Virus record (IMG/VR): IMGVR_UViG_3300009130_000005
Span: 52,467-116,466 of that record
From: a virus
Strand: one strand, 5' to 3'
Length of the DNA stretch: 64,000 nt
Below the pieces are notes generated by a model. The model was given only the letters and a program-made list of their open reading frames with translations. It had not been told where the DNA came from and searched no databases. A program made the position numbers and the translations under genes. Position 1 is the first letter of the stretch; every line of letters begins with the position of its first letter. Positions 27,557-46,396 of this stretch are shown here, piece after piece.

Positions 27557-29182
27557 ATGGGGAAAGAAGCCGATAGAGAAAGAGCCATAATGCGAGAAGT
27601 AATCAAGCTCCACAAGAAAATTGATTATCTTACAGACCAAGTAATGGAGCGACTAGACAAAATGACAGGCGAACAAGCCCAAAAAGATTTTCCGTTTGCA
27701 CCTACGCCTGACGAAGGTATAAAATCAATAAGAATAAAAGGAAGAAACAATGAGTAAATCCGCAACTTGCAGTCGCAATAGTAACATCCAACGCAATATC
27801 GAGAATGGACATTACATCCATAACTCTCGATTCCGTAACTACGGAGAACTTCCCGAAGACCGCCCAAGTTGGGACTTTCGGGTAAAGCGTCACGGACAAG
27901 CACTTGCCAAACTAGAACAAGCAGAAAGAAAGATTCGTAAACATGGATAATTCAACACAAAAATATGTGGAGTTTGATAAGCTCCAATGGGTATGTAATA
28001 AGCCTTTGCCAAGTGTCGGCACAGAGGTAAATGTCACTATCAATGGCATTGGTCGTTCGGTAGTAGAAAAGTATTTCGTGGAACACGGATTCATTGGACT
28101 TATTGTTCAGCCACAAAATCCACCGACTTGGTATCGAGAGCAAAATAAGTCTACGAAGGATTCGGCACTTTATGATTGGACTCATTGCCATGTATTTCCT
28201 GCGGAAGTCTCCGAGCTTCAAGTTCGGAATAATGATGGGAAAGCAGACGAAGAGTTCTACAAAAAGGTACTTCACCCTGCATGATTGATTCAGAAAACTT
28301 TTATCTTGTCAAGCAGATTGCTGACCTTCTTGAAAAGAAACTTGATCTCAAGGTTAAGGATCACGGAATGTGGAGAATACAATGTCTCATACATGATATG
28401 ATTGAAGAGAAAGAACATATAACAAATAATAAGGAGAAAGAGAAAATTCATTTAGCGTAATATAATAACAATAAACAAAATCTTTGTAAATAAGCGGTTG
28501 GCGTAAGTCCTTCGAGCGGAGGGGTTTGCAAAAATCGCCCGCCGATTTTCTTGAGTTTGTCAAGCTAAATGATTGATAAACTTGTTTGTGAATCATATTT
28601 GCGTTTTTTGATTCACAAACGCTAAAAAACTTTTTTCAATTTCACAAAGAAAAAGGTTGACTTCACCCCAAAACCTGTCATACTAGGTACTATGAATTAC
28701 GCACAAGAACAACTAGAATACCTTGAGTGGAAGGCTCAAGCCGAACAAGAAAAACGATATCACCCATGCGACATTAGCGAGGGAGTCTATGCTCTAGTGG
28801 ATGATGATAGTCCTAGCGAATCGCCAATGTTTTTCCTTACATTGGAAGGAGCATCAACTTATGCAGAGGGAAGTTACCCTTATTGCAATGGCAATTGGTC
28901 GGTATATAGAATTGGTCAAAAGGTAATGTAACTTTTTCCTTGACAAAGCACCGATAATTTGAGAGAATATATACTATGACACAAAGAAATGCACACATCG
29001 ACACTCCCGAACAAATTGACGCTTTCAGAGCAAGAGTATTGTTGAGGGGATTGAAACTAGAAACGCTAGGAATGACTAAACGAGGAGCATCTTGTTATTC
29101 CATTATCAAGCAAGAGTATGGGCTGAAGGGCAGTAAGCAAAAAGTTTACGAGAACTTCAAGAAAATCCTTGACATGAGATAG
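27557..29182 (+). other. Small hypothetical CDSs (27557, 27750, 27943, 28692, 28976)
   Basis: ORFs behind TTGAC promoters at about 27519, 28657 and 28940. Confidence 0.65.
28531..28549 (+). repeat. Composite element copy 1 (core palindrome)
   Basis: AAAATCGCCCGCCGATTTT. Confidence 0.9.
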
Positions 29183-29202
29183 ATAATTTGAGAGAATACA
29201 CT

Positions 29203-30408
29203 ATGCAAAAACTAGAAAAGCTATACAAGATAGACTCGCTTGGGAAACTGAGAGAGTGGACAATGGTTATTGACGGAGACTCATTTCACGCAGAGAAGGG
29301 TTTAGTTGGAGGTAAAATCGTATGCGATAAGCCAACGACTGCAATCGGCAAGAACGAAGGTAAGGTCAACGAGACTACCAACGAAGAACAAGCATTGCTT
29401 GAGGCTCAAGCAAGATGGGACAAGAAACTCAAGGAAGGTTATGCTCTCACTCCAAAGGAAGCAGAAACCATGAGTTATTACGAACCCATGCTTGCACAAA
29501 AGTTTGAAGATAGAGAGAAAGAGATTCAGTCTGTATTTGACAATGAAGGCAAAGTCTTTTCTCAAGCCAAACTAGATGGCATCCGTTGCATCATTCGCAT
29601 GGAAGATGGAGAGATAGTTGCTCGTACTCGCAAGGGTAGGACTATCGACACAATCCCTCATGTGATTGAGGAACTGAGCGTGTTCTTTGACTGCAACGAA
29701 GATGCGATACTAGATGGTGAGTTGTACAATCACGACTTGAAGCACGACTTCAACAAGATTGTTTCTCTTGTACGCAAAAAGACTCCCGAAATGACCAAAG
29801 GTGATTCGGAAAAAAGTTTTGCAAGAAAAGAAGCAAAGTATGCTGACGCATTGCAAGAGTCTAAGGGTTTGATTCAGTATTGGGTTTATGATTGCCCAAA
29901 GTTGTCAGATGCTTACGATGAGTCAATCGCCTTCTCCGCTAGAAACTTTATGCTACAAGGAGAGTTCACGGATGTAGTGGATGGGAACTCTGTCAAACTC
30001 GTACAGACAGATGAGTCACAATCGTTTGATGAACTTGACGAAAAGTATTCAGAGTATATGCAAGATGGTTACGAAGGGCAAATGGTTCGCATCGACTCTC
30101 CATATGAGAGCAAGCGTTCAAAGTCTTTGCTCAAGCGTAAAGAGTTCCAAGATGCAGAATACAAGGTAATTGACATTGAAGAAGGTAATGGCAATCGTAG
30201 TGGTACTGCAAAGCATTTGGTGTGCTATTGCGAGGAAACTGACCAAACCTTCAACTCAAATGTCAAGGGCAACTTTGACTATCTTGCAGAAATCTTAGAG
30301 AACAGAGAATACTATATTGGCAAACTTGCCACAATCAAGTTCTTTGAGCTTACACCTGATGGAGTGCCTCGCTTTCCTTATGCGATAGCATTTCGAGACT
30401 ACGAATAA
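29203..30408 (+). CDS. ATP-dependent DNA ligase
   Basis: KLDGIRC, LDGELY, EGQMVR, LLKRK and PRFP motifs; leaderless ATG at 29203. Confidence 0.95.
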   Translation: MQKLEKLYKIDSLGKLREWTMVIDGDSFHAEKGLVGGKIVCDKPTTAIGKNEGKVNETTNEEQALLEAQARWDKKLKEGYALTPKEAETMSYYEPMLAQKFEDREKEIQSVFDNEGKVFSQAKLDGIRCIIRMEDGEIVARTRKGRTIDTIPHVIEELSVFFDCNEDAILDGELYNHDLKHDFNKIVSLVRKKTPEMTKGDSEKSFARKEAKYADALQESKGLIQYWVYDCPKLSDAYDESIAFSARNFMLQGEFTDVVDGNSVKLVQTDESQSFDELDEKYSEYMQDGYEGQMVRIDSPYESKRSKSLLKRKEFQDAEYKVIDIEEGNGNRSGTAKHLVCYCEETDQTFNSNVKGNFDYLAEILENREYYIGKLATIKFFELTPDGVPRFPYAIAFRDYE

Positions 30409-30429
30409 ACCACAAACATATTGCGAAAA

Positions 30430-31023
30430 ATGATTGACCCAAAAAAAGTTACAGACTACAACAGAAACGAATGGCAACTGCAAGAGTTCCTTATCTACTG
30501 CGTATGCGTTGCAGGTAAGAAGAGTGAAATTGAATCACCAAAGGTTCGCAAGTTTTGCATGGATGCAAGATTTGGATTTGGACTAACTCCATTTGAGCTT
30601 ATACGCAAACTGCTTTCAGTCTCTTCTGTAGAAGAAGATGGTTTGATGCAACATCTCAAGAAGTATAAGATTGCACCATATCAGCAACGCTATAATAGCT
30701 TCAAGGATATTGCAACCTTACTTGACGGAGATTTGCGTGAGGTTACAATTGATCAGTTGCAAGAGGTTCGTGGGATCAGCACGAAGACTAGCAGATTCTT
30801 TCTTACTCACTCAAGAGAGGATTTCGATGAACCTGTACTTGATACGCATATTTTGCGATTCCTTACTGACTTTGGATACAAAGATGTTCCGCAGTCAACC
30901 CCTCAGAACCCAAAGGTTTACGAAAAGTTTTCCAAGATATTCAGAAGTATTGCTAGATTTGAGGGTAAAAGCGTTACCGACTTTGATCTAGAGGTATGGA
31001 CTAAGTATTCCTACGGAAATTGA
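30430..31023 (+). CDS. HhH-GPD DNA glycosylase-like protein (OGG/EndoIII superfamily)
   Basis: VRGISTKTSRFFL HhH motif with Lys; VLDTHILRFL catalytic Asp; FDLEVW. Confidence 0.8.
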   Translation: MIDPKKVTDYNRNEWQLQEFLIYCVCVAGKKSEIESPKVRKFCMDARFGFGLTPFELIRKLLSVSSVEEDGLMQHLKKYKIAPYQQRYNSFKDIATLLDGDLREVTIDQLQEVRGISTKTSRFFLTHSREDFDEPVLDTHILRFLTDFGYKDVPQSTPQNPKVYEKFSKIFRSIARFEGKSVTDFDLEVWTKYSYGN

Positions 31024-31058
31024 TTGACAAAGACAACAACTTCAACTACTATATTATT

Positions 31059-31787
31059 ATGCAAACATTACAGAAAGCGAAAAAAGATAATTCACGCATT
31101 GCTCGTCATGCTGACATCATAGTAACCTCTGATAGGTACAAACGAGTAGACAACTTCTTCAGCAACCTATCGCTAGGAGTCGTCAAGAAAGAAGAGGCTT
31201 ATTGGGACGAGCTTACCATCCGTGACGATGCAGAGTATTTCGCTCGTTGGGTCTTTGGTATAATGAGCGTTCATACTACATGGGAGAGCAATGTGCGAGG
31301 TTATAATCTCGCCATGCAAGACTTGTCTTGGACAACCTCTAAGGATAGACTAGAGCAGATGGTCATTGATGCAAAGGTTGGAATGTACGAAAGACGCAAC
31401 AAGGGCTTATGGCAACTTGTTGACAAGTTCCGTGAAGACCCAAAGCAGTTCTACAAGAAAGAAGATGAAACTTGGCAAGAGTGCAGAAATCGTCTTATAG
31501 GTAGCATTTATGGTTTGGCTAACGCAAAGACAACTTACTCTATTGCGTTGGCATTCCCTACTGAAGCTCGTCTATGTTGCCTAGATGTCCATTTGCTACG
31601 CTTTATGGGGCATGACCTCAAAAAGGGTCACGCAAGCAATCTGAAGGTCTACGAGGAGATGGAGAACGAGTGGCTAGAGCGTTGCGACAAGTATGATGTC
31701 TCACCCAATGTTGCAAGAGAAATCTATTGGAATAAAGTCCAAAACAGAAGAAACTCTCGCTATTGGTCTTATTGCTTAGAGCGATAA
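31059..31787 (+). CDS. Second HhH-GPD DNA glycosylase-like protein
   Basis: IYGLANAKTTYS and CLDVHLLRFMG motifs. Confidence 0.7.
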   Translation: MQTLQKAKKDNSRIARHADIIVTSDRYKRVDNFFSNLSLGVVKKEEAYWDELTIRDDAEYFARWVFGIMSVHTTWESNVRGYNLAMQDLSWTTSKDRLEQMVIDAKVGMYERRNKGLWQLVDKFREDPKQFYKKEDETWQECRNRLIGSIYGLANAKTTYSIALAFPTEARLCCLDVHLLRFMGHDLKKGHASNLKVYEEMENEWLERCDKYDVSPNVAREIYWNKVQNRRNSRYWSYCLER

Positions 31788-32345
31788 CAAGAAAGGATAT
31801 TATCATGGGTATACATCAAAACGCTCCAAATCTTAACGCATTGATGGAAGAGGGAGAACTTCCCGATGATGCGATATATTATCCTGAATATGACAAGGCA
31901 ATCCTTGGATTCACGACAAAAGGTCAAATCGTATACGATGTAGACGCTTGTGTGCAATGCTTAGTCGATGACCAAGACATGGGTTACGAGGAGGCTACCG
32001 AATATTTTTGGTTCAATACGGAAGGTGCTTACTTTGGTGACAAAACACCAATTTTCCTAAACCAAAGGGCGCAACATAATGGATAATATTGTTATGTTTT
32101 TCTTTTATGTTTTTATTGCCTATTTACTTTTCCTTCAATACCGATAGAATAAGATGTGAACAAAAGTGAAATAGAGGAATACTTCGAAGCTATCAATTGG
32201 TTTGAAAAGCTGCAAAAGGATGAAGTAGAAATAGAGCAAATAGTCCAAGAGATGTTCCGACTATTCCCCTATACAAGCACAAAGTTATTGCACCAAGGTT
32301 TCTTTATGGCGATTGTCTCAATGAACTGATTATCAGCGATTTGGG

Positions 32346-32364
32346 AAAATCGCCCCACGATTTT
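32346..32364 (+). repeat. Composite element copy 2
   Basis: AAAATCGCCCCACGATTTT. Confidence 0.9.
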
Positions 32365-32473
32365 TTTAAAGCCACATAAATCCTTCATTGTCAACAGTTT
32401 TCGTAAGAAAAAAACTTTAGTTTTATGCAATTTAGGGGTTGACTTCACAAGCTTTTCTGTCATACTATATATT

Positions 32474-32872
32474 ATGAAACGCACTAAGAATGACAAGAAG
32501 TATGATCTCGACTTTGACCGCAAAGTCTTTGTCTATAAAAACTTGCACAAGGGTTGTTGGAGCATCAAGCAAGATGGTCTTGTTAAGGCTCACGCAACGG
32601 AGTTGACCCTTTATGGATGTAATATGTATGTGAACCGCAAAGGTAGGCAAAGAGTATTGAGGGAAAAAAGAAAGAATGTTCATGCAGGAATCAAAGGCTA
32701 CCTCAGGGATGCAGAGCTTGAGCGTGTTTGGGGCGACTTGCCCGAAGATCAGTTTGACGAGATAACATACAATCCTTACAAGTATTCCTCATTCGTTCAC
32801 ACTAAGGATGAGTCTCCTCGTTGGTTTGGGATTATCGCAAAACTTGAAGAAAAAAGAGTACTTATTGCTTGA
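32474..32872 (+). CDS. Conserved phage hypothetical protein
   Basis: VYKNLHKGCWSI and GRQRVLREKRKNVHA, a recurrent phage family pattern. Confidence 0.7.
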   Translation: MKRTKNDKKYDLDFDRKVFVYKNLHKGCWSIKQDGLVKAHATELTLYGCNMYVNRKGRQRVLREKRKNVHAGIKGYLRDAELERVWGDLPEDQFDEITYNPYKYSSFVHTKDESPRWFGIIAKLEEKRVLIA

Positions 32873-33159
32873 CAAAACGCATAAACCCAACTAGACTACT
32901 ATAATGAAACACAAACTAAGCCGAGAAGACCTTGAGGTAATCTTTGATGTCCTCAATGTTTATGACCCAAACGACATAAGCCATGTCTACCCCGAAATGG
33001 GAGAAAGCGAATTCACTACGCAAGTTGAAAAAACTTGGAAGAAAGTCTTGAGTATGCTAGACTATGACCCAACCATTTCATGGGATTATACTCTTGGGAA
33101 GCCCGATCCGTTCTGCGAAAATGCTTGACAATCACGACCAAAACTGAGAGAATATAACC

Positions 33160-33561
33160 ATGAAAACACTATATATCGTAAGAGGACTTCCAGGAAGTGG
33201 CAAGTCTAGCCTAGCAAAGAAAGTCACGGAGTTAGTATACTCTGCTGACGATTTCTTCACCAACAAGAAGGGTGAATACAATTTCAACGCCAAACTACTC
33301 GGCAAAGCACATGAGTGGTGTTGGGGCAAAGTAAGAGATGCAATGTTCATTGGAGCAAATGCAGTTGCCGTTGCCAATACCTTCACTCAAGCATGGGAGG
33401 CAGAAAAGTATTATCAGATTGCAGAGGAATACGGATACTCTGTCTTTGTAATTGAATGTCAAAATGACTTCGGTAATGTCCATGATGTACCACAAGAAAG
33501 TATTGATGCAATGAGAGAAAGATGGGAAAAAGACTTGACTCCTGTCGCCAATCTGTCATAA
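33160..33561 (+). CDS. P-loop kinase (AAA_33 / polynucleotide-kinase-like)
   Basis: IVRGLPGSGKS, SADDFF, VANTF and NVHDVP motifs. Confidence 0.85.
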   Translation: MKTLYIVRGLPGSGKSSLAKKVTELVYSADDFFTNKKGEYNFNAKLLGKAHEWCWGKVRDAMFIGANAVAVANTFTQAWEAEKYYQIAEEYGYSVFVIECQNDFGNVHDVPQESIDAMRERWEKDLTPVANLS

Positions 33562-33593
33562 TTGAACACATAACACTAACAAAAGGATATATT

Positions 33594-34010
33594 ATGGGAT
33601 TAGACCAATATGCATACGCAACCCCTAAAGGGACAGAAGAACAAGAAGAACTCGCTTATTGGAGGAAGCACAATCGACTCCAAGGATGGATGGAGCAACT
33701 TTGGGAAGACAAAGGTAGACCATTCGATGGAGAGAAAGATGAAGGAAACCCAATGGGTGATTTCAACTGCGTTCCTGTTGAACTTACTTTGTCAGACCTT
33801 GAACAACTTGAGGCTCATGTAGAAAACAAAGCATTGCCCGAAACAGGTGGGTTCTTCTTTGGTAGCGACTCCTTTGGTTGGACAACTGAAGATGGCGAAG
33901 AGTATGGAGAGAATGATTATCATTACAAAGAAGATGACCTCCAATTCATCGAAAAAGCTCGTAAAGCTATCGAAGAAGGCAAGAAGGTATTCTACAACTG
34001 CTGGTGGTAA
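33594..34010 (+). CDS. Conserved phage hypothetical protein
   Basis: MGLDQY, YWRKHN and LPETGGFFFG motifs. Confidence 0.75.
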   Translation: MGLDQYAYATPKGTEEQEELAYWRKHNRLQGWMEQLWEDKGRPFDGEKDEGNPMGDFNCVPVELTLSDLEQLEAHVENKALPETGGFFFGSDSFGWTTEDGEEYGENDYHYKEDDLQFIEKARKAIEEGKKVFYNCWW

Positions 34011-34011
34011 G

Positions 34012-35329
34012 ATGCAAGTATTGAAACAAATTATTGAACATTGGGGTTTTGTTGACTCTCAACAATTACCCGAACTAGCAAAGCATTTTCCCGATACTCC
34101 GCTTGTTATCAAATGGGGAGCAATGCCAAGAGAGCAAATCGTTGCATCAAAAGTTGCTGAACGCATCAAAGAGGTTGAGCAATGGAATCAAGACTATGTT
34201 CGTGAGGTTTTTATTTGCTCTGAACAATTTCGCAAGCTCAAAGAAGTTTTTGGGTTGACAGATGCCTCCTAATCTGAGAGAATACTATAATGCAAACAAT
34301 AGATATCACACCAACTTGGGAGGCTTGCGTCAAGATATACATGGCAGTCCTTGAAAATGAAAACGCATCCTTCACAGGAAAAAGAGAAGCGAGAGCAGAA
34401 CTCATTCGCCTAGCAAAGATAGTAGACAATCAGAACGATAAGGCAAAACAAAAGGAGGAAAACTTTCACCCCGATACAAAAGATAACAACCGATACAACA
34501 ACGCAGATGTTGATGTAGATATGCTAAACCAAATGTACAACCAAACTATATAATCATGGGCAAAAAAGCTAGAGAAAAAGGAATACCTAACGCAGAAACG
34601 CATAAAGCTCTGCACACAATCGCAAAGAAGTCTTCTCACGGAGGCAACAAACCATTGGTAGAATCTTTGACTAATCCTAATGTGATGGTCACGCAAAAGG
34701 TTCGCAAGGCACAAGAAAGAAGGAGGGCAGTATAATGGGAGAATGGGATTCATATATTGATGCAGTTGTCGCAGTAGACGAACTTGGCACTTTACCTCCT
34801 TTGGAGTCTGAACCCGAATACGATGCGGATTCTGACACATGGGCTTTACACTTTGAATACGAAGACCCTATGATGGGCGGTAACGATATGGTGACCTTGC
34901 ACTTCGATAAAGAAGAGGATGCAATCTTTACTGCAAACAAAATTGTAAGCGATAGGCATATCGCAATGTTGGAACTAGAAAGAAAGAAAGCTGAAAAAGT
35001 CCTTGACAAACAAGGCTAATTGTGGCATACTATATATTATGAAACTGAAAAAGAAAAAGACAAAACTCGAAAACACTATCACTAACCTTCTTGCGCGTGG
35101 CACAGCCATTGCAAGTTTTGACTACAACGGAGTTTCTCGTAATGTAATCATTGGGGCAAACGCATCGTCCCAAGGAGACAGGCAATGGGGGCAAATGTCC
35201 AACAAGGCTATTGTTGAACACAAGGGAAAGAAGTATCTTTCTGCTCGTGTCAATAACGACATTGGTCATGTCAAGGCATTCTCCCTCGACAAAATTTCCA
35301 ATTTTCAAGTTGATGGTTCTGTAGTGTAA
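34012..35329 (+). other. Small hypothetical CDSs (34012, 34290, 34735, 35039)
   Basis: Packed ORFs; promoters at about 34255 and 35003. Confidence 0.6.
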
Positions 35330-35352
35330 CCGTTGGTTAGTGGTGTGTTCAT

Positions 35353-35384
35353 ACGGAGGGTCCATTCGGGCCCTCCGTTTTTTT
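35353..35384 (+). terminator. Rho-independent terminator
   Basis: ACGGAGGGTCC-ATTC-GGGCCCTCCGT followed by a T-run. Confidence 0.85.
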
Positions 35385-35436
35385 GTATCCCTGCAAATAG
35401 GCAGTCATAAGTATTTGCTCTATCGGGGGTTACGAA

Positions 35437-35462
35437 AAAATCGCCCGCCGATTTCGTGCCAA
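35437..35462 (-). repeat. Composite element copy 3 with sigma54-like box
   Basis: Reverse complement reads TTGGCACGAAATCGGCGGGCGATTTT. Confidence 0.9.
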
Positions 35463-35565
35463 TTTCACAAGTATCTAATGGGTAGGCAGATAGGCTCACA
35501 AAAAAAAACACCCGATTAAGCTTTTTTTTCTTGCAATTACCTCAGATTCTGTCATACTTATAGTT

Positions 35566-36729: not shown

Positions 36730-36753
36730 TCATAAACCATAGGAATAACTGAT

Positions 36754-36996: not shown

Positions 36997-37065
36997 AGGG
37001 CAAATAGGCAAATAGCCGACCAAATAGTCCCAAGGGCGCAAGCCCTTGGGGCTTAGTGGTTTACG

Positions 37066-37092
37066 GAAATCGCCCAGCGATTTTCATGCCAA
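37066..37092 (-). repeat. Composite element copy 4 with sigma54-like box
   Basis: Reverse complement reads TTGGCATGAAAATCGCTGGGCGATTTC. Confidence 0.9.
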
Positions 37093-37295: not shown

Positions 37296-37329
37296 GCTCT
37301 TTCAGTAGATGCAAACGCATTGAACAACG

Positions 37330-37520: not shown

Positions 37521-37574
37521 TCTTTTTCAAAAAAAACCCTTGACAAAAACACATAATCTGTCATACTTATAATC

Positions 37575-38413
37575 ATGAATAACACGGAATCACAATTAGC
37601 TTCATTTGAAAATTTGGAATTCAATCAACACCCTCGCTTTGCTGAAGGCACGGCTATTCAAGCGAGACTCAAGTTTGGGTCGAGAGACCAATTTGAGATT
37701 TCAGTCGTCCAAAACATTGGAAGTGGCACAGGCTTATATGGTCACGAGGATGACAACACTTACGAAGTCGCAATGTGGTTCGATGGAAGAAACACCATGC
37801 TTCCCTTATCTCTTTACGACGATGTTCTCGCAGGACAATCTCCAAGCGACATCACTCGCCTAATGCATCAAGCACATCTCAACGATTTTGCTTGGGTTAC
37901 CCTTCTTCACTCTTTGCGAGACGAACATCGCAAGGAAATGGAGCTTGACAACTAACCTTAACTCTGTCATTATATATGAATTACTCAACCATAGAAGGTT
38001 GCATAAGACAATCAACACAAAACAAAATTATGGATACACAAAACAACCAATATATAGTTCTCAAGAATGGAGAACCAATGAACATCAAAGGAACGCTTGA
38101 GCAAATTACTCATCATGTACGCTTGCTAGAGCAAGGACTCAATCGACACCTCCAACACTCACCCTATACTATCGGCAAAGCCGATGCAAACTAATTACAA
38201 ACAAAAAAAGGTATAACTATGAACGAATTCATAAATGCGGTAGATAAAATTGTAACGGCTCAACTTGGACTAAGCGTCCATGACTTAGAGGACTTTGCTT
38301 TTTGCGATTACTATGACGAAACTTTTGACCCCGATGGTTACGACTATCAAAATGCAGTCGAATCCTGTGCGGAAGATTTTCTCGCTGAAGTTGGGAATCT
38401 CTTTGTGATGTAG
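37575..38413 (+). other. Small hypothetical CDSs (37575, 37976, 38219)
   Basis: Leaderless ORFs after promoters at about 37540 and 37944. Confidence 0.65.
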
Positions 38414-38497
38414 TGATGTGATTAGTCTCTAGGGCGAAATAGGAAGATGCCAAATACCTACCCTAGTTCGCAAGTCCTTAGGCATCAGGGGCTTGCG

Positions 38498-38516
38498 AAA
38501 ATCGCCCCGCGATTTT
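38498..38516 (+). repeat. Composite element copy 5
   Basis: AAAATCGCCCCGCGATTTT. Confidence 0.9.
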
Positions 38517-38805
38517 TTTAAAGCGTTTTGTAAGTAATTAGCCTCCAATGCTTTACGAAAGAAAAAAAGTTAGTTTTATGCGTTTTTGGGGTTGACTTAA
38601 CCCCCTATTTCTGCATAATGGTATATATGAACGCTAAAGAAAGAATGAATGAATGGAAAAAGCTTCCCGCTAACACTATCCCGTGGGAAACTTTCAAACG
38701 CCTAGTGTCTCAGTTCGGAATGGACGAAGGCATAAAGAAAGCTCAAAAGATAATTGAAAAAAAGGGTTGACTTCACACGAAAATCTGTCATACTAAAGGG
38801 ATATT

Positions 38806-39528
38806 ATGATAAAACAAACATTGCTCACATCAGGAAACGCTAAAATTGTCAAGGGCGAAAAACTTGGCTACATTACAAAAGGGCTTCACTTCGCTCCTGC
38901 AAACCTTTCGGGGTTTGAGGTTTGCCGTTGGAGAAGCAAGGGTTGCACAATGGCTTGCCTCAACACAGCAGGTCGTGGACAAATGGACTCTATTCAAAAT
39001 GCTCGCATCGCAAAGACAAAGCTATTCTTCGAGAAGCAGTTTGACTTTCTTGCAAAGCTAACAAAAGAGATTGCTTCCACTATCAAGTCAGCAGCCAAGA
39101 AAGAAATGCAAGCAGTTTTTCGTTTGAACCTCACGAGCGACATTGCATGGGAATCTGTTTTCTTTGATGAAGAAAAGCCTCAAAACATTTTCGACAAGTT
39201 TCCCGAAACGAAATTTTATGATTACACTAAGTCTTTCGGGCGTATGGCTCAATTCCTCAATGGCGAGTTGCCAAGCAATTACCATTTGACTTTCTCAGCT
39301 TCCGAGCATAACCAAAAGCTAGTCGAGATGGTTTTGGAAATGGGGGGTAATGTTGCCGTGGTCTTTCGTGACCAACTGCCTTGTACTTGGAAGGGTTTTG
39401 AAGTTGTCAATGGTGATGCAAACGATTTGCGTTTCCTTGACAAGTCGGGCGTGGTCGTTGGGCTTATCGAAAAAGGTCTTGCCAAAAAGGACGAAACAGG
39501 ATTCGTACAGGAAGGGGTAAATTCATGA
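38806..39528 (+). CDS. Phage gp88-like protein (Cys-cluster, radical-SAM-like)
   Basis: VC......C...CL..AGRG, RLNLTSDI.W, FYDYTK, YHLTFS and GD..DLRFLD motifs. Confidence 0.8.
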   Translation: MIKQTLLTSGNAKIVKGEKLGYITKGLHFAPANLSGFEVCRWRSKGCTMACLNTAGRGQMDSIQNARIAKTKLFFEKQFDFLAKLTKEIASTIKSAAKKEMQAVFRLNLTSDIAWESVFFDEEKPQNIFDKFPETKFYDYTKSFGRMAQFLNGELPSNYHLTFSASEHNQKLVEMVLEMGGNVAVVFRDQLPCTWKGFEVVNGDANDLRFLDKSGVVVGLIEKGLAKKDETGFVQEGVNS

Positions 39529-39767
39529 GTGACTATTACGAATCAGCAAAAGGAATAATGATAACGAGAGACCGAGCCTTGCAAGAGATTCGGAATCACA
39601 ATCTAGAAAACTTTGAAGAATTTTTTGAAGACTTAGGAGACAGAGAACATTATGATGCACAATCCGTCTTGATTTGGCTAGGATACTAAATAGCCAGTTT
39701 TCAGGACATTCAGCAAATAGGCAAATAGCTAGTCTTGACCTAAGTTACTCAGTAGTAGGCATTTGCG

Positions 39768-39794
39768 AAAATCGCCCCGCGATTTTTATGCCAA
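39768..39794 (-). repeat. Composite element copy 6 with sigma54-like box
   Basis: Reverse complement reads TTGGCATAAAAATCGCGGGGCGATTTT. Confidence 0.9.
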
Positions 39795-40524
39795 TCGCCT
39801 AAGCTCTTGATTGAAAAGCTGTTAGGAGGGCCAAACCCATACCATTGCCAAGATAGCAATGACGGGCCAACCCATAACAAAAACTAATTGTGCTAATTCC
39901 ATATGATTACCTTTCGTTGAAAACTCCTGCGTTTTGCTCTTGGAACTTGAAGTGGCTATCGTGGCAACGAGAGCGAGAACCGCCAAGCTCACGAAAGTTT
40001 CGAATCTCACGAGAGACTTCAAAGCGAGCTTGCCAAGCCTTACCCCAAGCGTCAGATTGCTCTTGTAGAGACTTTGAGGAATCCCAAAGGGCGTTGCACT
40101 CTCTGTTGAGAGTTTCGAATTTTTTGTTCAATTCTTTTATTTCTAACATAAGTATAATCTAATCTATTTTTTCGTAAATTGCAAGCAAAAAGTGATAAAG
40201 TTATTCACATTGCATAGCTTTCATTTCATCTCCAATCTCTTTCATGATTCGGGCTTGCTCGTTTTCTTTGTCGAGCTTTGCCTTTTCATGCTTGAGGTCG
40301 AAAAGTTGACCTTTCAGATCTCTAAGAGTTCCGCCAAAAACATCGTTGGCAACTGCGATAGTCATTGCAGTTTCGGGCGTAGCCCTTGCGTTCATGCGAT
40401 CAAGTGCGTTTTGCATTTCAGCAATTTCAATTTCCTTAAGGCGAATGTGTTCTTCTATTTTCATCAATTTCATATATATAATGTAGCAGAGTTAGTTAGT
40501 AATTGCAAGCAAAATCGTATCAAG

Positions 40525-40629
40525 TTATTCACAATCTTTCTTGTGCTTAACCTTGCGTGAGTATTTGGACTTGTCCTTGTGAGGGCGAGCCTTAGTGAAA
40601 ACGATTGGGATTCTTACCTTAACTTTCAT
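40525..40629 (-). CDS. Small basic ArfA-like peptide (34 aa, not in ORF track)
   Basis: MKVKVRIPIVFTKARPHKDKSKYSRKVKHKKDCE; TTGACA promoter immediately upstream. Confidence 0.6.
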   Translation of the reverse strand: MKVKVRIPIVFTKARPHKDKSKYSRKVKHKKDCE

Positions 40630-40718
40630 ATATAGAATATAGCATATAAAGTTAGCTTTGTCAAATTCTTTTTTCAATTATTTTGCAATGCAAACCTCTG
40701 ACTATCAAAGGCTTAGCC

Positions 40719-40737
40719 GAAATCGGCGGGCGATTTT
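40719..40737 (-). repeat. Composite element copy 7 (core inverted relative to copies 1-6)
   Basis: GAAATCGGCGGGCGATTTT on the + strand. Confidence 0.9.
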
Positions 40738-41005
40738 CGACTCAGAAGTCGTGCTGGGCGTGGTAGCCGTAGTCGATGTCCTCAGACTCCTCGAAGTCGA
40801 GGAGGGCAACCCTGTCCTGCAGGTCACCGATTTCGTTGCGAATCGCAACTCGGTCAGCAACCGAAAGGACGCAGTCCTTAAGGGTTTCGTGAAGGATGGA
40901 GATTTCTTTGAGCATTTCTGATTTAGTCATACATACAACATACCCAAGAAACAGGCAAAAGTCAAGAAAAACTTTCAACTATTTTATGGACTTATTCTAT
41001 CAGGA

Positions 41006-41031
41006 AAAATCGCCCGCCGATTTCGTGCCAA
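41006..41031 (-). repeat. Composite element copy 8 with sigma54-like box (26 bp identical to copy 3)
   Basis: AAAATCGCCCGCCGATTTCGTGCCAA. Confidence 0.9.
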
Positions 41032-41264
41032 AAACTTTTTTGCTAATTTCATCATTTTTTGCTTGCGTTTACCTTGCTTTCTGTCATTATATAGGGATGA
41101 ACACAACAAGAAAACCTCTAACCTTAGATTATACAAAATGGACATCCTAACAATTATTGCTCTTACGATCATTCTTTTTCGAGAAATTCAAAATTTTTAG
41201 TTGACAGAACTTAAAAACTAGTCTAGTATCATATACAGAATCAAGATTGCTAACCTAAACAAAA

Positions 41265-41903
41265 ATGAACATTGCACAAACTATTGATCCCAAACTCATC
41301 GAAAACTCCCTCAACTCTGTTGCAACCAATGGGGTAACGCATCACGGCTACGCTTTTGAAGAGTTTCTTATTCTCGCCCTTGGATTTACCGAGGAAGATG
41401 GCACAACCTACCGATCCGTCAAGCAAGGTGGAACTCAACTTCACAACCAAGATTTCGACATTCCTGCCGAGGTTGTCGCTCGCAATCCAATCATTCCCCA
41501 AAGTCTCCAAGGGAATTGGTCGGTTAAGGCTTGCGAACATGGCAAGACGATTGGCTTAGGCATGGCAAGCAATCAGTTTGACGCATGGGCTAAGGATGGC
41601 ATCGTGCAAGCAATCGCATTCTACAAGAAAGAAGGTGATCGCAAGGTGGTAACTCATTTCTCAATCCATCGCATCGAGCCATCCGCAAAGCTATGGGGCA
41701 ACCTCACAAAGGAAAAGATTGCCGAGATCGACCCAATGGTTCGCAAGGACAAGTCGATCACATGGTCAAAAGAGCAAACCAAAAAGCTCAACAGGTCAGC
41801 AAACGGCATGATTGGGTTGCGTAACATTTCAAGAGAAAAGACCAACTCAAGAAACCTTCAATGCTACATGACTTTTTCCAATTATATGCAATTAGTTGCT
41901 TGA
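41265..41903 (+). CDS. Putative PD-(D/E)xK restriction-endonuclease-like protein
   Basis: HGYAFEE..., DFDIP and WSVK spaced like an E...D...(E/S)xK catalytic core. Confidence 0.45.
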   Translation: MNIAQTIDPKLIENSLNSVATNGVTHHGYAFEEFLILALGFTEEDGTTYRSVKQGGTQLHNQDFDIPAEVVARNPIIPQSLQGNWSVKACEHGKTIGLGMASNQFDAWAKDGIVQAIAFYKKEGDRKVVTHFSIHRIEPSAKLWGNLTKEKIAEIDPMVRKDKSITWSKEQTKKLNRSANGMIGLRNISREKTNSRNLQCYMTFSNYMQLVA

Positions 41904-41934
41904 CAAAAACCCTAGAATCTGAGAGAATACAATT

Positions 41935-42180
41935 ATGCAAAACACTACTACATACAACGGATGGAAGAATCACGCCACTTGGAATGTCGCACTTTGGATT
42001 GGTGGCGACCAAGGACTCTACGAGTTCGCCAAGGAATGCGAAAGCTACAACGATTTTGTGGAGCAACTCCGTGAGGTTTCGGGTGATAGCTCTATCGGAT
42101 ACCAAACCCCCGACAGGGTAGCTTGGAACGATTCGGGCATTGACATTCCCGAGCTAGACGAGTACATCGCAAACCTCTAA
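41935..42180 (+). CDS. Conserved phage hypothetical protein
   Basis: YNGWKNHATWNVALWI..D.GLY motif. Confidence 0.75.
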   Translation: MQNTTTYNGWKNHATWNVALWIGGDQGLYEFAKECESYNDFVEQLREVSGDSSIGYQTPDRVAWNDSGIDIPELDEYIANL

Positions 42181-42199
42181 CACTCAAAGCCTTACGCGA

Positions 42200-42226
42200 T
42201 TGGCACAGAAATCGCGGGGCGATTTT
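42200..42226 (+). repeat. Composite element copy 9 with sigma54-like box
   Basis: TTGGCACAGAAATCGCGGGGCGATTTT. Confidence 0.9.
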
Positions 42227-42676
42227 TAATCGATTTTTTTTTGCGCATTTCTTTGCCATTCAAGGGGTTATGCAATATTTTTGCACGAGATTGCATTTTT
42301 GGGCATTTTTTCTCCGCGAAGGGTGAAAGTTTTTTTGTTTTTCTATTAGTTGTATATCAAGGACTTATGACAATTTAAGGTAGCTGAATACGAATTTGCT
42401 TGCGGTTTTGTCAATTTCTGTCATACTGTATTACATGATTAAGATTAAGAAAGTAACCCCAAAGTTCACGAAAGGCGATGTCCTTATTTCACGAGACAAC
42501 AAAGTCTTTCAATTCATCGAGGCAGTCGAGCATGACACGCTTGGCACGATTGCCAAAGTTCGCCCTTACAGGACAAACCGAGAAGTCGGTATCCGTTTCG
42601 AGGATGTAAAACTTCATCCGTTTTTTTCTTAATTTAGCCCTTGACAGGAACCCCTTTTATCTCTAGTATTACAATC

Positions 42677-42961
42677 ATGACAGAATCACAAAGACTCGAA
42701 CTCATCGCTAACGCAGTAGCTTCCGCCAACAAGGTCGCTCCACAGTTTCAAGGACTCCTTGACGAGCTAAAGGCTGAAAAGCTCGCTGAGGACTTAGTTC
42801 TCGAACATGGTACTCAACACGCCTCGAAGGAGGACATTGAAGAGGAGTTTGTCTCCCTCGATGCAGTCGAGTCCGACAAGGACGACATTGACGAAGATGA
42901 CGAGAACGTTGTCGATATGGATTTCGTCAGCGAGTCCATGCGTGAAATTTTCAATTCCTAA
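42677..42961 (+). CDS. Acidic small protein, paralog A
   Basis: MTESQRLELIAN...; highly similar to 46397-46690. Confidence 0.8.
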   Translation: MTESQRLELIANAVASANKVAPQFQGLLDELKAEKLAEDLVLEHGTQHASKEDIEEEFVSLDAVESDKDDIDEDDENVVDMDFVSESMREIFNS

Positions 42962-43162
42962 CCACTAACAGAAAGGCAATCATGTATATTCTCAAAAGTA
43001 TTCTCAACCAAGCGGGCGCCGTTTGGCAAGTCGAATCCATTGCCATGCGCAAGGTAGAGGCCGAAAGGCTTCTCAAGCGTAGGCTTTCAACCAATGACGG
43101 TTCTCGCCGTTACGGGTTGTTTCCCGCTTCATAAACCCTTAAGACTTAGCCACTTATGAAAG

Positions 43163-43188
43163 TGGCACAGAAATCGCGGGGCGATTTT
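43163..43188 (+). repeat. Composite element copy 10 with sigma54-like box
   Basis: TGGCACAGAAATCGCGGGGCGATTTT. Confidence 0.9.
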
Positions 43189-44359
43189 CGCTAACCCCTT
43201 GGACATCAGTAAGTTAAGCCCTAAAAAAAGATAACTTTCTTCATTTTTTTTTGCAATAGCCCTTGACAAAAGGGGTTTCCTGTGCTATATTATATACATG
43301 ATTAAGAATAAAACTAGACTCATCGAGATTCACGAATGGACTTCATTCATCTCTGTCAAGATTCACGAAGATGGAGATTACCCACGGGTTCGCTCCGCAA
43401 GTACTCTCAAGTACTTCAACGAGATTCTGAAGGATGAGCTTTCGCACGCCCGTTCTCTTGGTTACGAGCCACAAATCAAACGCTCAGGCGTTGGCAAGTT
43501 TGGCGGTATCAAGTACAAAGACTTGCACAAACTAAAAAGTGCTTGACAAAAACCCTCAACTTCTCTATATTACAACCATGAATAGAAAACAAGAATTGCA
43601 AAAACTTATCGACGAAAACCTTAGCGAAGCCGAAGCAGGCGACTCAAAAGCAAGGGGCATCGTTATCAACGCACAAGCCGAGCTTGACGATATCGCCAAC
43701 GAAGAAGGCGAATCCGCTTGGGAACTTTTCGCACAACAACAAAGAAATTTGATTGAATTTAGCTTGACTTTCTGAGCTAAGTTTCATAGAATGCCTTTAT
43801 ATTATGAAAAACATCACACAAGAAATCCAAAGACTAACCTCAACGCTTCAAGCTTTGACTCAGCAAAGAATCCTTGCCATGCAACAAGGTAGGCATTCAG
43901 AAGCTCAGCAGATTCAATCTGTGCAAGTTGACATTGACAACAAAATCCAACAACTAGAGAAAAACATATGAAAATTTTTGACAAAATCCGCATAACAGCA
44001 GACGAGCTTATCAAGTCTGAAATTCTTGAGGCTGTATCTGAGCAAATCCGAGTTCCCTCTTCAAGCCTTGCAGATTGCAGGGAGTGGTCTAATTGGGACT
44101 ATTCGGGCATCTATTTCGTGCATAGCAACAAAAGATGTGCAAGAGTTTGGATTGACGAAGAAACCTTCAAAGCAACCCGTTGCGAACTATTATGATGACA
44201 GAACTAATTATCGCCTTGGGACTCGCAAGCTCTGCTTGTTGCGTCCTTTTTCTTATTCAAGCCTTTCTTGAGCATAGAGAACTCGAGAAACTCAAAAAAG
44301 AATTTGAGGAGCTTGAGGAAATGGAGTTCTAACTACCTGAATCTCAATGCTTTAGGCGA

Positions 44360-44386
44360 TTGGCACAAAAATCGCGGGGCGATTTT
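44360..44386 (+). repeat. Composite element copy 11 with sigma54-like box
   Basis: TTGGCACAAAAATCGCGGGGCGATTTT. Confidence 0.9.
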
Positions 44387-45793
44387 GGGTATCTCTTTGA
44401 TAACCAACGACTTAACCCCGAAAAAAAACAAACTTTTTTCGCAATTTCATCATTTTTTTCTTGCAATTAGCCCAAAACTAGTTTATCATGTAGGCATGAA
44501 TAAAATTGAAAAGATTGAAAAGCTCCAAAAGGACATTGCCTTTTGGCAAGACAAACTCAACCGCTCACGCAAGGAGTCTCTCCGCTCCATTCGTGCGGTA
44601 CATCTCAACCACGCACGAAACGAGTTGAAAAAACTTCAAGAAAGTGCTTGACTTTTTCGCAAAACTAGACTAGATTATATACCATGAACACTACTACTAA
44701 ACTAATCAATTCAAAGTGGGATGCAATCCATTCCGCTCAAACCACTATGGGCAATGTCCGAAACGACTTGTTTGATAATGTCGCCCTTGCCTTGTCTCGC
44801 ATCGAGGGAAAACTCGCATTTCTCAATTCAGATGATACGCTTGACGGCAAGCCAAGAGTGACTGAGGGTCATTCCCAAGAAGTTGCCAAGCAAGTTCAGC
44901 AAGAAGTTGCTGACACTCGCAAGGCATTGGACAAGATTTTTGTTCAACTAACCGATGGTAAGAACTCACTTTTTGACTCCTAAGATTATGCCTTACAAAA
45001 CACAATCAGAAATCCTTTACAAGTACCCCGATAGCGGTGACGAGTTCGTTACCCATGCAAGTGGTCGTCCCGACATACGAGAGGGTTATGGAATGACTGA
45101 AGATGATGCTTGCAGTCGTGAGTGGTTCGAGAAAGGTGGTCGCAACAAGGTTGTCATTCTCAAGTCTGAGCAGATTAGCCAAGACGAGTACAACCAATGG
45201 ATTGACCATTGCAACATCAAGTATGAACATATCTCTCGCAACCATCGCAATGGGGTAGAGTAAAAAAACCCTTGACATATTCGCCATATTACTACATACT
45301 CATATTATGATTACGATAAAAAGACACCCAAACCTAGACAACTGGATAAATGTTCTACGCTTCAACAAAGTTATGGAGCAAACCACTTCAAGAGTCAAAG
45401 CGTTGAAACTCGCAAAGACTTTTTCCAAAAAGTTCAACGAGCCAATGGTGGACGCTGACAAGGGAGAGATTCATTTGCGTCATGGGTAACCTACAAAAAC
45501 ATCTCGAAAAAAACAATCCTTTCGTGATTACATCCATTGACAGAAGGACAATTATTTTGCGTAAGGATTCGGAACATTACACACCAAAGAAAAACGACAG
45601 AATCTTGTCTATTGATTGCGTACTCGCAAACTCGGACAGGTTGAGAGAGATACAAGAAGGGATTTTTGAGTTGCTATGAGTTGGGATATTTTACTTTTCT
45701 TGCCGTGGGTTGCCGTGTTTTGGGTTATGTTTGTTGACCTGTTCAGCATGGACTCAGATTGGTAAGTTGTTGCGATTCAGTCACTTGCAGAAG

Positions 45794-45819
45794 TGGCACA
45801 GAAATCGCGGGCCGATTTT
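45794..45819 (+). repeat. Composite element copy 12 with sigma54-like box
   Basis: TGGCACAGAAATCGCGGGCCGATTTT. Confidence 0.9.
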
Positions 45820-46396
45820 CGGCATCCCCTTGATAGTCAATGAGTTAAGCCTGAAAAAAAGATAACTTTTTTCGTTTTTTTGTGTTTTAGGGGTTGACTT
45901 TCGGGGATTTTCTGTCATACTGCAATGTATGATAAACATTAGCATATTCGCCATCGTTTCCTTTTTCGCTTGGTCTGAGCAAGCCCAAACCTCCGAGGAG
46001 TTGCCATCCCTAGAGGCAAGCCCTTTCGCTTCTGATTTCGGCACAAGTGCCGAGCATAGAGCAAACATGGAGTGGCACGCTTCACACATCGCCAAACTAC
46101 AAGAAGAAAAAAAGTAAAAAAACTTCATTTAGTCCTTGACTTTTACGGATAATTCCATTATATTTTACATATGATTAAGATTGAAAAGAACGAAAACTTC
46201 AAGCAATTCCTTAACATCTTCGTTGGAGGTTTCCTTGTTGACCAAGTAAAAAGCCGAGCAGAAGCTCTCAAGATTGCAAACAAGCTTTGCAAGTCAAGAA
46301 ACGAAAAGGGATTTTCCTTTCTTGGTTTTCCAATGGAAAAGGGCGAAAAGTAAAAAAACCCTTGACAAAAACCCTTTTATCTGATTGAATACTATT

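What the first reader, a model, noticed from the sequence alone, without database searches (positions are those of the whole stretch)
28504..45850. Twelve-copy composite DNA element (GC-core palindrome, sigma54 box, double IHF-like palindromes) dividing the early region into gene modules
Seen: the 19-bp imperfect palindrome RAAATCG-N5-CGATTTY occurs between genes at 28531, 32346, 35437, 37066, 38498, 39768, 40719, 41006, 42208, 43170, 44368 and 45801. I did not see it elsewhere in the window. Copies are usually flanked by one or two 25-bp palindromes and followed by A/T tracts and a sigma70 promoter. Pairs share about 90-100 bp of similarity (copies 2/5 and 10/12). Spacing shrinks from 3.8 kb to about 1 kb toward 41 kb. 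The 1-4 kb modules between copies carry 1-6 small genes, including duplicated genes and one inverted block. Inference: a protein-bound nucleoprotein array. It could be a set of recombination sites for cassette shuffling, a DNA-entry/organisation signal (cf. the T5 injection-stop region), or a decoy for host factors. I know of no described phage element with this architecture.
Basis: partly seen in the sequence, partly recalled or inferred. Interest (0 to 1): 0.9.

Follow-up and report, generated by a model that had tools for sequence, protein, structure and literature searches.

The report
Repeated palindrome marking phage gene-module borders
An uncultured marine phage separates its small early-gene blocks with twelve copies of one short palindrome, most of them carrying a flank that looks like a sigma-54 polymerase docking site, and related phages have swapped gene blocks at these marks.

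Summary
RAAATCG-N5-CGATTTY occurs 12 times at the stated coordinates and nowhere else in the 116-kb phage contig. The same element forms arrays in six related IMG/VR phage contigs and is missing from a more distant relative. In relatives the full unit is a roughly 33-bp palindrome, TTGGCAYR-AAATCG-SSSSS-CGATTT-YRTGCCAA. The "sigma54 box" is its outer arm. All 45 arms examined keep GG-N10-GC, because a 1-nt shift of the arm comes with a matching change in the loop. A palindrome-free box of the same type sits 12-13 nt before a leaderless hsp20 gene in 7 of 7 genomes. The palindrome makes a weak RNA hairpin, and separate terminators lie beside some copies. Synteny breakpoints concentrate at the elements, and one relative carries a hybrid copy. 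A restriction-endonuclease-like gene lies inside every array whose record reaches that part. Best reading: a PeSL-like border cassette whose palindrome is a protein docking site, probably for sigma54-type polymerase, and whose repetition drives module shuffling. The binding partner is unproven. This scan found the same element type before on related phage DNA.

The parts
28531..28549 (.). copy 1 core palindrome (loop CCCGC), no TGGCA arm
32346..32364 (.). copy 2 core (loop CCCCA), no arm; an extra GCGATTT half-site lies 4 nt upstream
35437..35462 (-). copy 3 core plus right arm GTGCCAA; on the minus strand it reads TTGGCACG-AAAT-CGGC (GG-N10-GC)
37066..37092 (-). copy 4 core plus right arm (TTGGCATGAAAATCGC on the minus strand)
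38498..38516 (.). copy 5 core, no arm
39768..39794 (-). copy 6 core plus right arm; lies at the point where plus- and minus-strand genes converge, with no promoter beside it
40719..40737 (.). copy 7 core, no arm; upstream of the minus-strand promoter 40664-40636
41006..41031 (-). copy 8 core plus right arm; flanked by divergent sigma70-like promoters, and the nearest element upstream of the restriction-endonuclease-like gene
42200..42226 (+). copy 9 left arm TTGGCACA plus core
43162..43188 (+). copy 10 left arm plus core
44360..44386 (+). copy 11 left arm plus core
45793..45819 (+). copy 12 left arm plus core
35353..35378 (+). canonical intrinsic terminator (11-bp GC stem plus T7) 59 nt upstream of copy 3; shows that the palindrome is not the module's terminator
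37026..37053 (.). GC hairpin with a GCAA loop upstream of copy 4, preceded by AAATAG repeats; at the same position relatives have hairpins of other sequence
41265..41903 (+). 212-aa restriction-endonuclease-like (PD-(D/E)xK-like) gene between copies 8 and 9; found in every record whose array reaches that part
47010..47396 (-). hsp20 gene at the right border of the array
47409..47423 (-). TGGCACG-N4-TTGC box 12 nt before the hsp20 ATG; conserved in 7 of 7 genomes with a variable spacer
39800..40965 (-). inverted block of two minus-strand modules bounded by copies 6, 7 and 8

Best explanation
The twelve copies are the invariant core of a clade-specific composite border element. Its order is: stop codon, AAATAG repeats and a GC hairpin or terminator, the interrupted palindrome AAATCG-SSSSS-CGATTT with zero, one or two TTGGCAY arms, A/T tracts, a sigma70-type early promoter, and a leaderless first gene. 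The core acts as double-stranded DNA read by a sequence-specific protein, not as an RNA hairpin. The arm plus the first G-C of the loop forms a -24/-12-type (GG-N10-GC) box, so the most likely reader is RNA polymerase holoenzyme of the sigma54 type. That holoenzyme would dock, or fire, at module borders. A second, symmetric reader of the AAATCG half-sites is likely. Because the roughly 19-35-bp unit is repeated between modules, general recombination between copies, within a genome or between co-infecting relatives, has moved, inverted, lost and gained modules, as PeSL cassettes do in T4-type phages. Shown: copy number, clustering, clade conservation, the spacing rule, the hsp20 box and the breakpoint association. 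Inferred: which protein binds and what binding does.
For: Non-random and clustered. Conserved as arrays in relatives: 10, 9-10, 10-12 and 7-9 copies in G001, G002, G006 and G011, at least 3 and at least 2 in the truncated G003 and G008, and 0 in G005, whose large terminase is 71% identical. Sequence rather than pairing is conserved. Variant copies carry single-sided changes that break pairing, and I saw no compensated pair in the arms (listing). Loops are at least 4 of 5 G/C in a 36-42% GC region. The fold is weak: dG ranges from -4.2 to -14.9 kcal/mol, z from +1.1 to -3.5, and 5 of 24 strand folds do not use the palindrome. Only copy 9 is terminator-like by the scan, and a canonical terminator lies 59 nt upstream of copy 3. 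Spacing rule: 45 of 45 arms keep GG-N10-GC. The 27 arms one nt from the core have loops starting GC, and the 18 arms two nt away have loops starting C, in 29 distinct combinations. Independent box: TTGGCAYG-N4-(T/A/C)TGCAA lies 12-13 nt before the hsp20 ATG in 7 of 7 genomes, with otherwise diverged flanks. Breakpoints at gaps holding an element versus other gaps: 7/10 vs 8/34, 6/10 vs 3/28, 5/8 vs 0/18 and 5/8 vs 0/15. G001's element at 35592 has the left flank of window copy 4 and the core and right flank of copy 8. A phage precedent for sigma54 use is YuA (PMC10914365, passages).
Against: Four of 12 window copies have no arm at all but keep the core, so the core must have a reader other than sigma54. 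The -12 part reads TCGC or CGGC, not the usual TTGC (consensus recalled). By orientation, 3 of 8 window arms would fire antisense into the 3' end of the preceding plus-strand module. No sigma54 domain was found in the 76%-complete contig, and no enhancer-binding protein either: the PF00158 hits lie in a ClpC-like ORF, and the control rings in all 14 genomes. The host is unknown and the clues conflict. Planctomycete-type families PSCyt2, PSD1 and DUF1501 point one way. In contrast, 79 of 80 best ClpC matches are Actinomycetota, and L5 gp82/gp88 families are present; from memory, that phylum lacks sigma54. The 45 arms are related by descent, so the effective sample is smaller. Copies 1-3 are collinear in all relatives, and some indels (window 43968-45271 versus G001) are not bounded by elements. 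The breakpoint tests share ancestry and count some shadow ORFs. No helical phasing to the sigma70 promoter was seen (Rayleigh p = 0.19 at 10.5 bp).
Confidence: 0.45

Rival explanations
1. The interrupted palindrome is the recognition site of the phage's own restriction-endonuclease-like protein (window 41265-41903). Nicks or breaks made there, in this genome or in co-infecting relatives, start the recombination that shuffles modules. The sigma54-like arm is a separate feature or incidental.
For: The protein model is confident (pLDDT 90.3). All 13 structural matches with Z of at least 5 are type II restriction enzymes or MutH: MutH Z 7.1, 3ndh 6.9, Sau3AI 6.2 and SfiI 5.7; BglI scores 4.4. E32, D65 and S86-x-K88 are invariant in 17 sequences. 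From memory, a D...SxK active-site variant is known from Cfr10I-type enzymes. Palindromes interrupted by N5 are typical sites of SfiI/BglI-type enzymes (recalled). In IMG/VR, 6 of 6 loci encoding a relative lie in array-bearing contigs, each with an element just upstream. The gene is absent from G005, which has no element. In the six records that hold the gene, 35 of 44 arms lie on the side of the core facing it. The phage also encodes a RuvB-like protein, a Holliday-resolvase-like protein and a ligase.
Against: Foldseek found no match at E of 0.001 or better (best 0.077). The tool notes that Z under 8 is common for unrelated folds. Gene and element share one narrow clade, so their co-occurrence is a single evolutionary event. 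No methyltransferase or immunity mechanism was found to explain why 12 intact sites persist beside an active nuclease. In G001 the polarity is weak (6 vs 4), and arms appear to travel with their modules. No binding or cleavage test was possible.
Confidence: 0.2
2. The core is the operator of an unidentified dimeric phage or host regulator that controls the early hyperplastic region globally from many dispersed sites. Recalled parallels are the 12 KorB operators of plasmid RK2, the P1 C1 operators and the L5 stoperators. The arms only extend the palindrome.
For: The half-sites are invariant in all copies, with or without arms, in seven genomes. Two-armed copies form a roughly 33-bp palindrome. 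Copy 8 lies between divergent promoters 38-41 nt away on each side. Most copies lie 24-117 nt upstream of a sigma70-type promoter, with A/T tracts and IHF-like TTGATA motifs in between. Extra half-sites lie beside copies 2, 9 and 11.
Against: No credible DNA-binding gene was found. The only hit among 105 small ORFs is an acidic AbrB/MazE-like protein. A plain symmetric operator does not predict that the arm keeps its distance to the loop's GC rather than to the half-site. There is no helical phasing.
Confidence: 0.2
3. It is only a bidirectional intrinsic terminator or RNA-stabilising hairpin at the ends of the modules.
For: It lies after stop codons. Copies 4, 5 and 6 fold to -13 to -15 kcal/mol on the plus strand. 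Copy 9 passes the terminator scan. Copy 6 sits at a convergent junction.
Against: The stems are A/U-rich and weak, and most copies lack a U tract. Separate GC hairpins or a terminator lie just upstream. The stem sequence is invariant without covariation in about 55 copies, unlike terminators. Terminator-like sites are not enriched in the region (22 found, 18.3 expected).
Confidence: 0.07
4. It is a decoy or organisation signal: a solitary CRISPR-repeat mimic (RNA anti-CRISPR), or a T5-like DNA-entry stop region.
For: The unit has the length and hairpin of some CRISPR repeats. Repeat-mimic RNAs in phages are on record (PMC10651486, search listing only).
Against: A metagenome scan for closely spaced pairs returned at least 120 stretches of an unrelated AAATCGTGNCACGATTT-type repeat. 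Single matches in unrelated viral contigs lack the arms. The element is symmetric, unlike CRISPR repeats. The copies are spread between genes rather than gathered in one non-coding stop region.
Confidence: 0.04

Closest known systems
PeSL (promoter-early stem-loop) cassettes of T4-type phages (Arbiol et al. 2010, PMC2839356; Comeau et al. 2014, PMC4122927)
   Same: Composite intergenic cassettes in a hyperplastic early region. Both have an AT-rich tract, a strong sigma70-type promoter and a stem-loop, sit upstream of small ORFan genes, and mark the indel and replacement junctions between related phages.
   Different: PeSL stem-loops are G/C runs of no fixed sequence and act as strong terminators. 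Here one 12-base half-site pair is invariant, folds weakly, carries a -24/-12-type arm, lies 24-117 nt from the promoter, and the genes are leaderless. Mini-circles were not tested. The phage is not a T4-type myovirus by any test made here.
Sigma54 (RpoN) -24/-12 promoters, and their use by Pseudomonas phage YuA (PMC10914365, passages; Ceyssens 2008 as cited there)
   Same: A TGGCAY box with GG-N10-GC spacing kept in 45 of 45 arms. A conserved box of the same type stands at leaderless distance before hsp20.
   Different: The -12 part is TCGC or CGGC. The boxes sit on a palindrome and often face each other. Many point antisense. No activator, enhancer site or sigma54 gene was found, and the host is unknown.
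Dispersed operator sets: KorB OB sites on RK2, P1 C1 operators, mycobacteriophage L5 stoperators (PMC9283540, search listing only; the rest recalled)
   Same: About a dozen copies of one short site spread between transcription units, at variable distance from promoters.
   Different: Stoperators are asymmetric, oriented with transcription and read by a known repressor. Here the site is symmetric, its orientation is uncoupled from transcription, and no reader is identified.
Type II restriction sites interrupted by N5 (SfiI, BglI) and site-specific nicks in T5-like and phiKMV-like phage DNA (recalled)
   Same: A palindrome interrupted by five free bases, with a restriction-endonuclease-like gene inside the array.
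   Different: No cleavage, nicking or methylase evidence. Fold similarity is only middling (Z 4.4-7.1).

Membership tests
PeSL regulatory cassette | Strong sigma70-type early promoter with an AT-rich upstream tract | tested here: met
   11 of 12 copies have such a promoter within about 120 nt on at least one side.
PeSL regulatory cassette | Stem-loop that terminates or attenuates upstream transcription | tested here: inconclusive
   The palindrome folds weakly. Separate GC hairpins or a terminator lie upstream at some copies. No RNA data were available.
PeSL regulatory cassette | Junctions of indels and replacements between related phages lie at the motif | tested here: met
   Breakpoints are enriched at element gaps in 4 of 4 comparisons, and one relative carries a hybrid element. 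Not all indels are bounded by elements.
PeSL regulatory cassette | Mini-circles formed by exchange between nearby copies | not testable with these tools
Sigma54-dependent promoter | GG and GC dinucleotides separated by 10 nt (TGGCAC-N5-TTGC type) | tested here: met
   45 of 45 arms in seven genomes; 8 of 12 window copies have an arm.
Sigma54-dependent promoter | -12 element TTGC(A/T) | tested here: not met
   The elements read TCGC or CGGC. The hsp20 box does read (T/A/C)TGCAA.
Sigma54-dependent promoter | Sigma54 and an AAA+ enhancer-binding activator available | tested here: inconclusive
   Neither was found in the 76%-complete phage contig. The host is not identified.
Sigma54-dependent promoter | Transcript 5' end about 12 nt downstream of the GC | not testable with these tools
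   No RNA run is listed for this DNA.
Rho-independent terminator | GC-rich stem followed directly by a U tract | tested here: not met
   Only copy 9 passes the scan. The stems are mostly A-U, and 5 of 24 folds do not use the palindrome.
L5-type stoperator | Asymmetric site in one orientation relative to transcription, with a cognate repressor gene | tested here: not met
   The site is palindromic, and core orientation differs between copies 1-6/8 and 9-12 although all these modules are on the plus strand. No repressor-like gene was found.
Integron attC / site-specific cassette site | Cognate tyrosine or serine recombinase | tested here: not met
   PF00589 and PF00239 gave no match at E of 1 or better in the contig; the contig is 76% complete.
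CRISPR repeat mimic (solitary repeat unit) | The same repeat forms spaced arrays in cellular genomes | tested here: inconclusive
The host genome was not available.
PD-(D/E)xK restriction-endonuclease-like protein (window 41265-41903) | Restriction-enzyme core fold with conserved acidic and lysine residues | tested here: inconclusive
   The top 13 VIA matches (Z 5.0-7.1) are all restriction enzymes or MutH. E32, D65 and S86-x-K88 are invariant. The best Foldseek E-value is 0.077.

The most novel reading that the evidence does not exclude
The element is a two-reader switch with no described parallel. Host sigma54 polymerase docks on the arm, and the phage's own restriction-enzyme-like protein reads the interrupted palindrome that forms the same promoter's spacer. 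One 33-bp unit would then both gate transcription across module borders and serve as a nuclease-triggered exchange point. This would amount to an integrase-free cassette system for phage accessory genes, arranged with polarity around the nuclease gene.
Probability: 0.12. Interest if true: 0.85.

Novelty: new variant of a known kind. Interest (0 to 1): 0.55.

Why it matters
If the reading holds, it extends the PeSL idea (regulatory cassettes as the joints of phage genome mosaicism) to an unrelated, widespread clade of uncultured marine phages. It adds a sequence-specific, probably protein-read joint. It would also be one of very few cases of a phage using sigma54-type sites, here as a repeated structural feature of the genome. 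The spacing rule (45 of 45 arms) and the hybrid junction give concrete hypotheses that can be tested at the bench. The element is also a practical marker for finding module borders and accessory-gene cargo in metagenomic phage contigs.

Tried and rejected
Terminator-only reading: rejected as the main function.

CRISPR-repeat mimic: the metagenome scan returned at least 120 stretches, of which 120 loci were examined. They carry an unrelated AAATCGTGNCACGATTT-type repeat.

Helical phasing to the sigma70 promoter: not seen (Rayleigh p = 0.19 at 10.5 bp and 0.02 at 10.0 bp; the promoter calls include likely false positives).

Other sigma54-like sites: TGGCAY-N5-TTGC occurs 3 times in the contig against a simulated mean of 0.32 (0 of 100 simulations reached 3). 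One of the three (window 35098) is not conserved in 4 of 4 relatives. Another lies inside a 247-aa ORF. TGGCACAAAAATCG at window 56962 lies in a zinc-ribbon coding sequence.

Similarity searches in the cultured-phage collection: no DNA match, and the large terminase is at most 28% identical.

Host identification: the first genome scan found nothing. The ClpC scan points to Actinomycetota, while DUF1501 points to Planctomycetota. This is unresolved. No WhiB was found.

AbrB/MazE-like protein (window 10175-10480): acidic, and found in G001 and G006 only among 5 records, three of which are fragments or lack the region. It is not a convincing reader.

PHROGs search of 10 proteins gave only unnamed families.

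Expression: no RNA holder is listed.

Self-association of the nuclease-like protein: the complex job gave no verdict.

Supplementary files of papers were not consulted. The YuA promoter tables (Tables S3-S5 of PMC10914365) might bear on the comparison.

Full report
**Observation.** Allowing two mismatches adds none. The window is the last 64 kb of a 116,466-bp virus contig. In the whole contig, even ATCG-N5-CGAT occurs only at these 12 places, all within 17.3 kb. The contig is a tailed phage. It encodes a large terminase with a T4-type N-terminal domain, ribonucleotide reductase, a DNA polymerase III alpha-like protein, a ligase, a one-piece tmRNA and many sulfotransferases. It has no DNA match among cultured phages, and its large terminase is at most 28% identical to theirs.

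**Anatomy.** All copies lie between ORFs. On at least one side, 11 of 12 are followed by A/T tracts and a sigma70-type promoter. Copy 6 lies where plus- and minus-strand genes converge and has no promoter beside it.
- Promoter-like sites are dense in the region (62 found, 36.2 ± 5.5 expected).
- Many start codons lie 6-8 nt after the -10 box with no Shine-Dalgarno sequence. The early genes therefore appear leaderless, which explains why nearly every small gene has its own promoter and why there are far more promoters than palindromes.
- Upstream of several copies lie AAATAG repeats and a GC hairpin with a GCAA or GTAA loop. Copy 3 has a canonical terminator 59 nt upstream.
- Copies 2/5 share 151 nt at 73.5%, and copies 10/12 share 94 nt at 84%.

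**Relatives.** More than 580 IMG/VR stretches encode a relative of the large terminase. The element occurs as an array only in the closest ones:

| Record | Terminase identity | Copies | Note |
|---|---|---|---|
| G001 | 85% | 10 | |
| G002 | 81% | 9-10 | |
| G006 | not measured | 10-12 | closest relative by DNA, 80-89% identity |
| G011 | not measured | 7-9 | |
| G003 | 82% | at least 3 | truncated |
| G008 | 81% | at least 2 | truncated |
| G009 | 81% | at least 1 | truncated |
| G005 | 71% | 0 | 107 kb |

 G005 has homologues of several of the modules but no element. Single matches in unrelated contigs lack the flanks and look like chance.

In relatives many copies show the full unit, a roughly 33-bp palindrome TTGGCAYR-AAATCG-SSSSS-CGATTT-YRTGCCAA. 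It can be present on either side, on both, or on neither.

**RNA hairpin or DNA site.** As RNA, the elements fold at -4.2 to -14.9 kcal/mol, with z-scores from +1.1 to -3.5, and 5 of 24 strand folds do not use the palindrome at all. Only copy 9 passes the terminator scan. Across about 55 copies the half-sites do not covary. Variant copies carry one-sided changes at the outer positions. Hairpins at the same position upstream of the element differ in sequence between relatives but stay hairpins, so the terminator role probably belongs to them. I conclude that the core is read as double-stranded DNA by a sequence-specific protein.

**The spacing rule.** In seven genomes, 45 of 45 arms keep GG-N10-GC.
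- When TGGCAY lies one nt from AAATCG (27 arms), the loop starts GC.
- When it lies two nt away (18 arms), the loop starts C, so the G of AAATCG supplies the GC.
- There are 29 distinct arm/spacer/loop combinations, and the other loop positions vary.

A plain symmetric operator does not predict this. It is the hallmark of -24/-12 promoters (consensus recalled; -12/-24 placement in PMC11704786, passages).

An independent box, TTGGCAYG-N4-(T/A/C)TGCAA, lies 12-13 nt before the ATG of the minus-strand hsp20 gene in 7 of 7 genomes, with a variable spacer and diverged surroundings. By contrast, an intragenic look-alike is not conserved.

Against a simple promoter reading:
- Four of 12 copies lack arms.
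- The -12 part is TCGC or CGGC.
- Three of 8 window arms point antisense.
- No sigma54 or activator gene is in the contig.
- The host is unresolved, with planctomycete-type genes on one side and actinobacterial-type ClpC and L5-like families on the other.

Sigma54 use by a phage has a precedent in YuA (PMC10914365, passages).

**Recombination.** Modules left of copy 4 are collinear in all relatives. To the right they are permuted, inverted, absent or novel. Gaps that hold an element are breakpoints far more often than other gaps:

| Comparison | Element gaps that are breakpoints | Other gaps that are breakpoints | p |
|---|---|---|---|
| Window vs G006 | 7/10 | 8/34 | 0.019 |
| Window vs G001 | 6/10 | 3/28 | 0.0045 |
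| Window vs G002 | 5/8 | 0/18 | 0.00085 |
| Window vs G011 | 5/8 | 0/15 | 0.0017 |

 These tests share ancestry, count some shadow ORFs, and include gaps widened by missing modules. At base level, G001's element at 35592 joins the left flank of window copy 4 to the core and right flank of copy 8. Some indels are not bounded by elements. No tyrosine or serine recombinase is present. A RuvB-like protein, a resolvase-like protein and a ligase are present. This matches PeSL-mediated shuffling (PMC2839356, abstract and section 13; PMC4122927, abstract), not integron-type exchange.

**A candidate second reader.**
- Its model has pLDDT 90.3.
- Foldseek finds nothing at E of 0.001 or better.
- All 13 VIA matches with Z of at least 5 are type II restriction enzymes or MutH.
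- E32, D65 and S86-x-K88 are invariant.
- In IMG/VR its relatives occur in 6 of 6 cases in array-bearing contigs, and it is absent from G005.
- Of 44 arms, 35 lie on the side of the core facing this gene. In G001, however, the count is 6 vs 4, and arms seem to travel with their modules.

This association comes from a single clade, and no binding test was possible.

**Verdict.** The element is a clade-specific variant of a known kind of regulatory border cassette, with an unusual sequence-specific core and a sigma54-type arm. Its reader and its effect on transcription remain inferred. The same element type was reported earlier in this scan on related phage DNA. I re-derived the spacing rule, the recombination link and the nuclease-like gene on this genome.

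Noticed in passing
window 27500-47000 and relatives: The early genes appear leaderless. The ATG lies 6-8 nt after the -10 hexamer, there is no Shine-Dalgarno sequence, and nearly every small gene has its own TTGACA-17-TAnnnT promoter.
   Followed up: partly
window 37170-37295 (+): Rfam's tRNA model matches end to end over 126 nt (43.7 bits), but ARAGORN calls no tRNA, so a tRNA-like RNA carries a large insert. It has its own promoter (37112-37139) and lies in a module that is absent from G001, G002 and G011 and relocated in G006.
   Followed up: no
window 47010-47423 (-): A phage hsp20 gene has a conserved sigma54-type box at leaderless distance in 7 of 7 related genomes. The G005 homologue has a different upstream region with an AAGGA motif.
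   Followed up: partly
G000 8357-11757 (before the window); window-wide: The contig carries a planctomycete-type gene trio (PSCyt2/PSD1 and DUF1501) and 8 Sulfotransfer_2 ORFs. Its ClpC-like gene, however, matches Actinomycetota best, and L5 gp82/gp88 families are present. The host signals conflict.
   Followed up: partly
metagenome loci L240 onward: An unrelated, abundant repeat of the AAATCGTGNCACGATTT type occurs in clusters of 2-7 within about 100-400 bp, on 31-36% GC contigs from a few metagenomes. Its nature is unknown.
   Followed up: no
window 37000-37065, 35390-35436, 38430-38497, 39700-39767: AAATAG(G) repeats (2-3 copies, 8-12 nt apart) precede the GC hairpins upstream of several elements, and also do so in relatives. 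Their function is unknown. On the minus strand they read CUAUUU, like a U-rich terminator tail.
   Followed up: no
window 57171-58001 (+): A 276-aa protein has a weak Sigma70 region 2 match (E 2.2e-4, below Pfam's cut-off) just upstream of the terminase region. It may be a phage late sigma factor.
   Followed up: no
window 16986-17966; 10623-11630; 29188-31787: The phage carries a DNA repair and recombination kit: a RuvB-like ATPase, UvdE, an ATP-dependent ligase and two adjacent Ogg-HhH glycosylase-like genes. A Holliday-resolvase-like ORF lies somewhere among the small ORFs.
   Followed up: partly
L237 11-27 and 2624-2640 (G005): The element-free relative has two copies of a different palindrome, TTTTTT-GCACG-AAAAAA, with identical flanks in its corresponding region. 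It may be an analogous border mark.
   Followed up: no
window 35977-36729 (+): The DUF932-like protein is far better conserved than its neighbours (90-99% identity in G001, G002, G006 and G011, against 40-85% for the neighbours).
   Followed up: no
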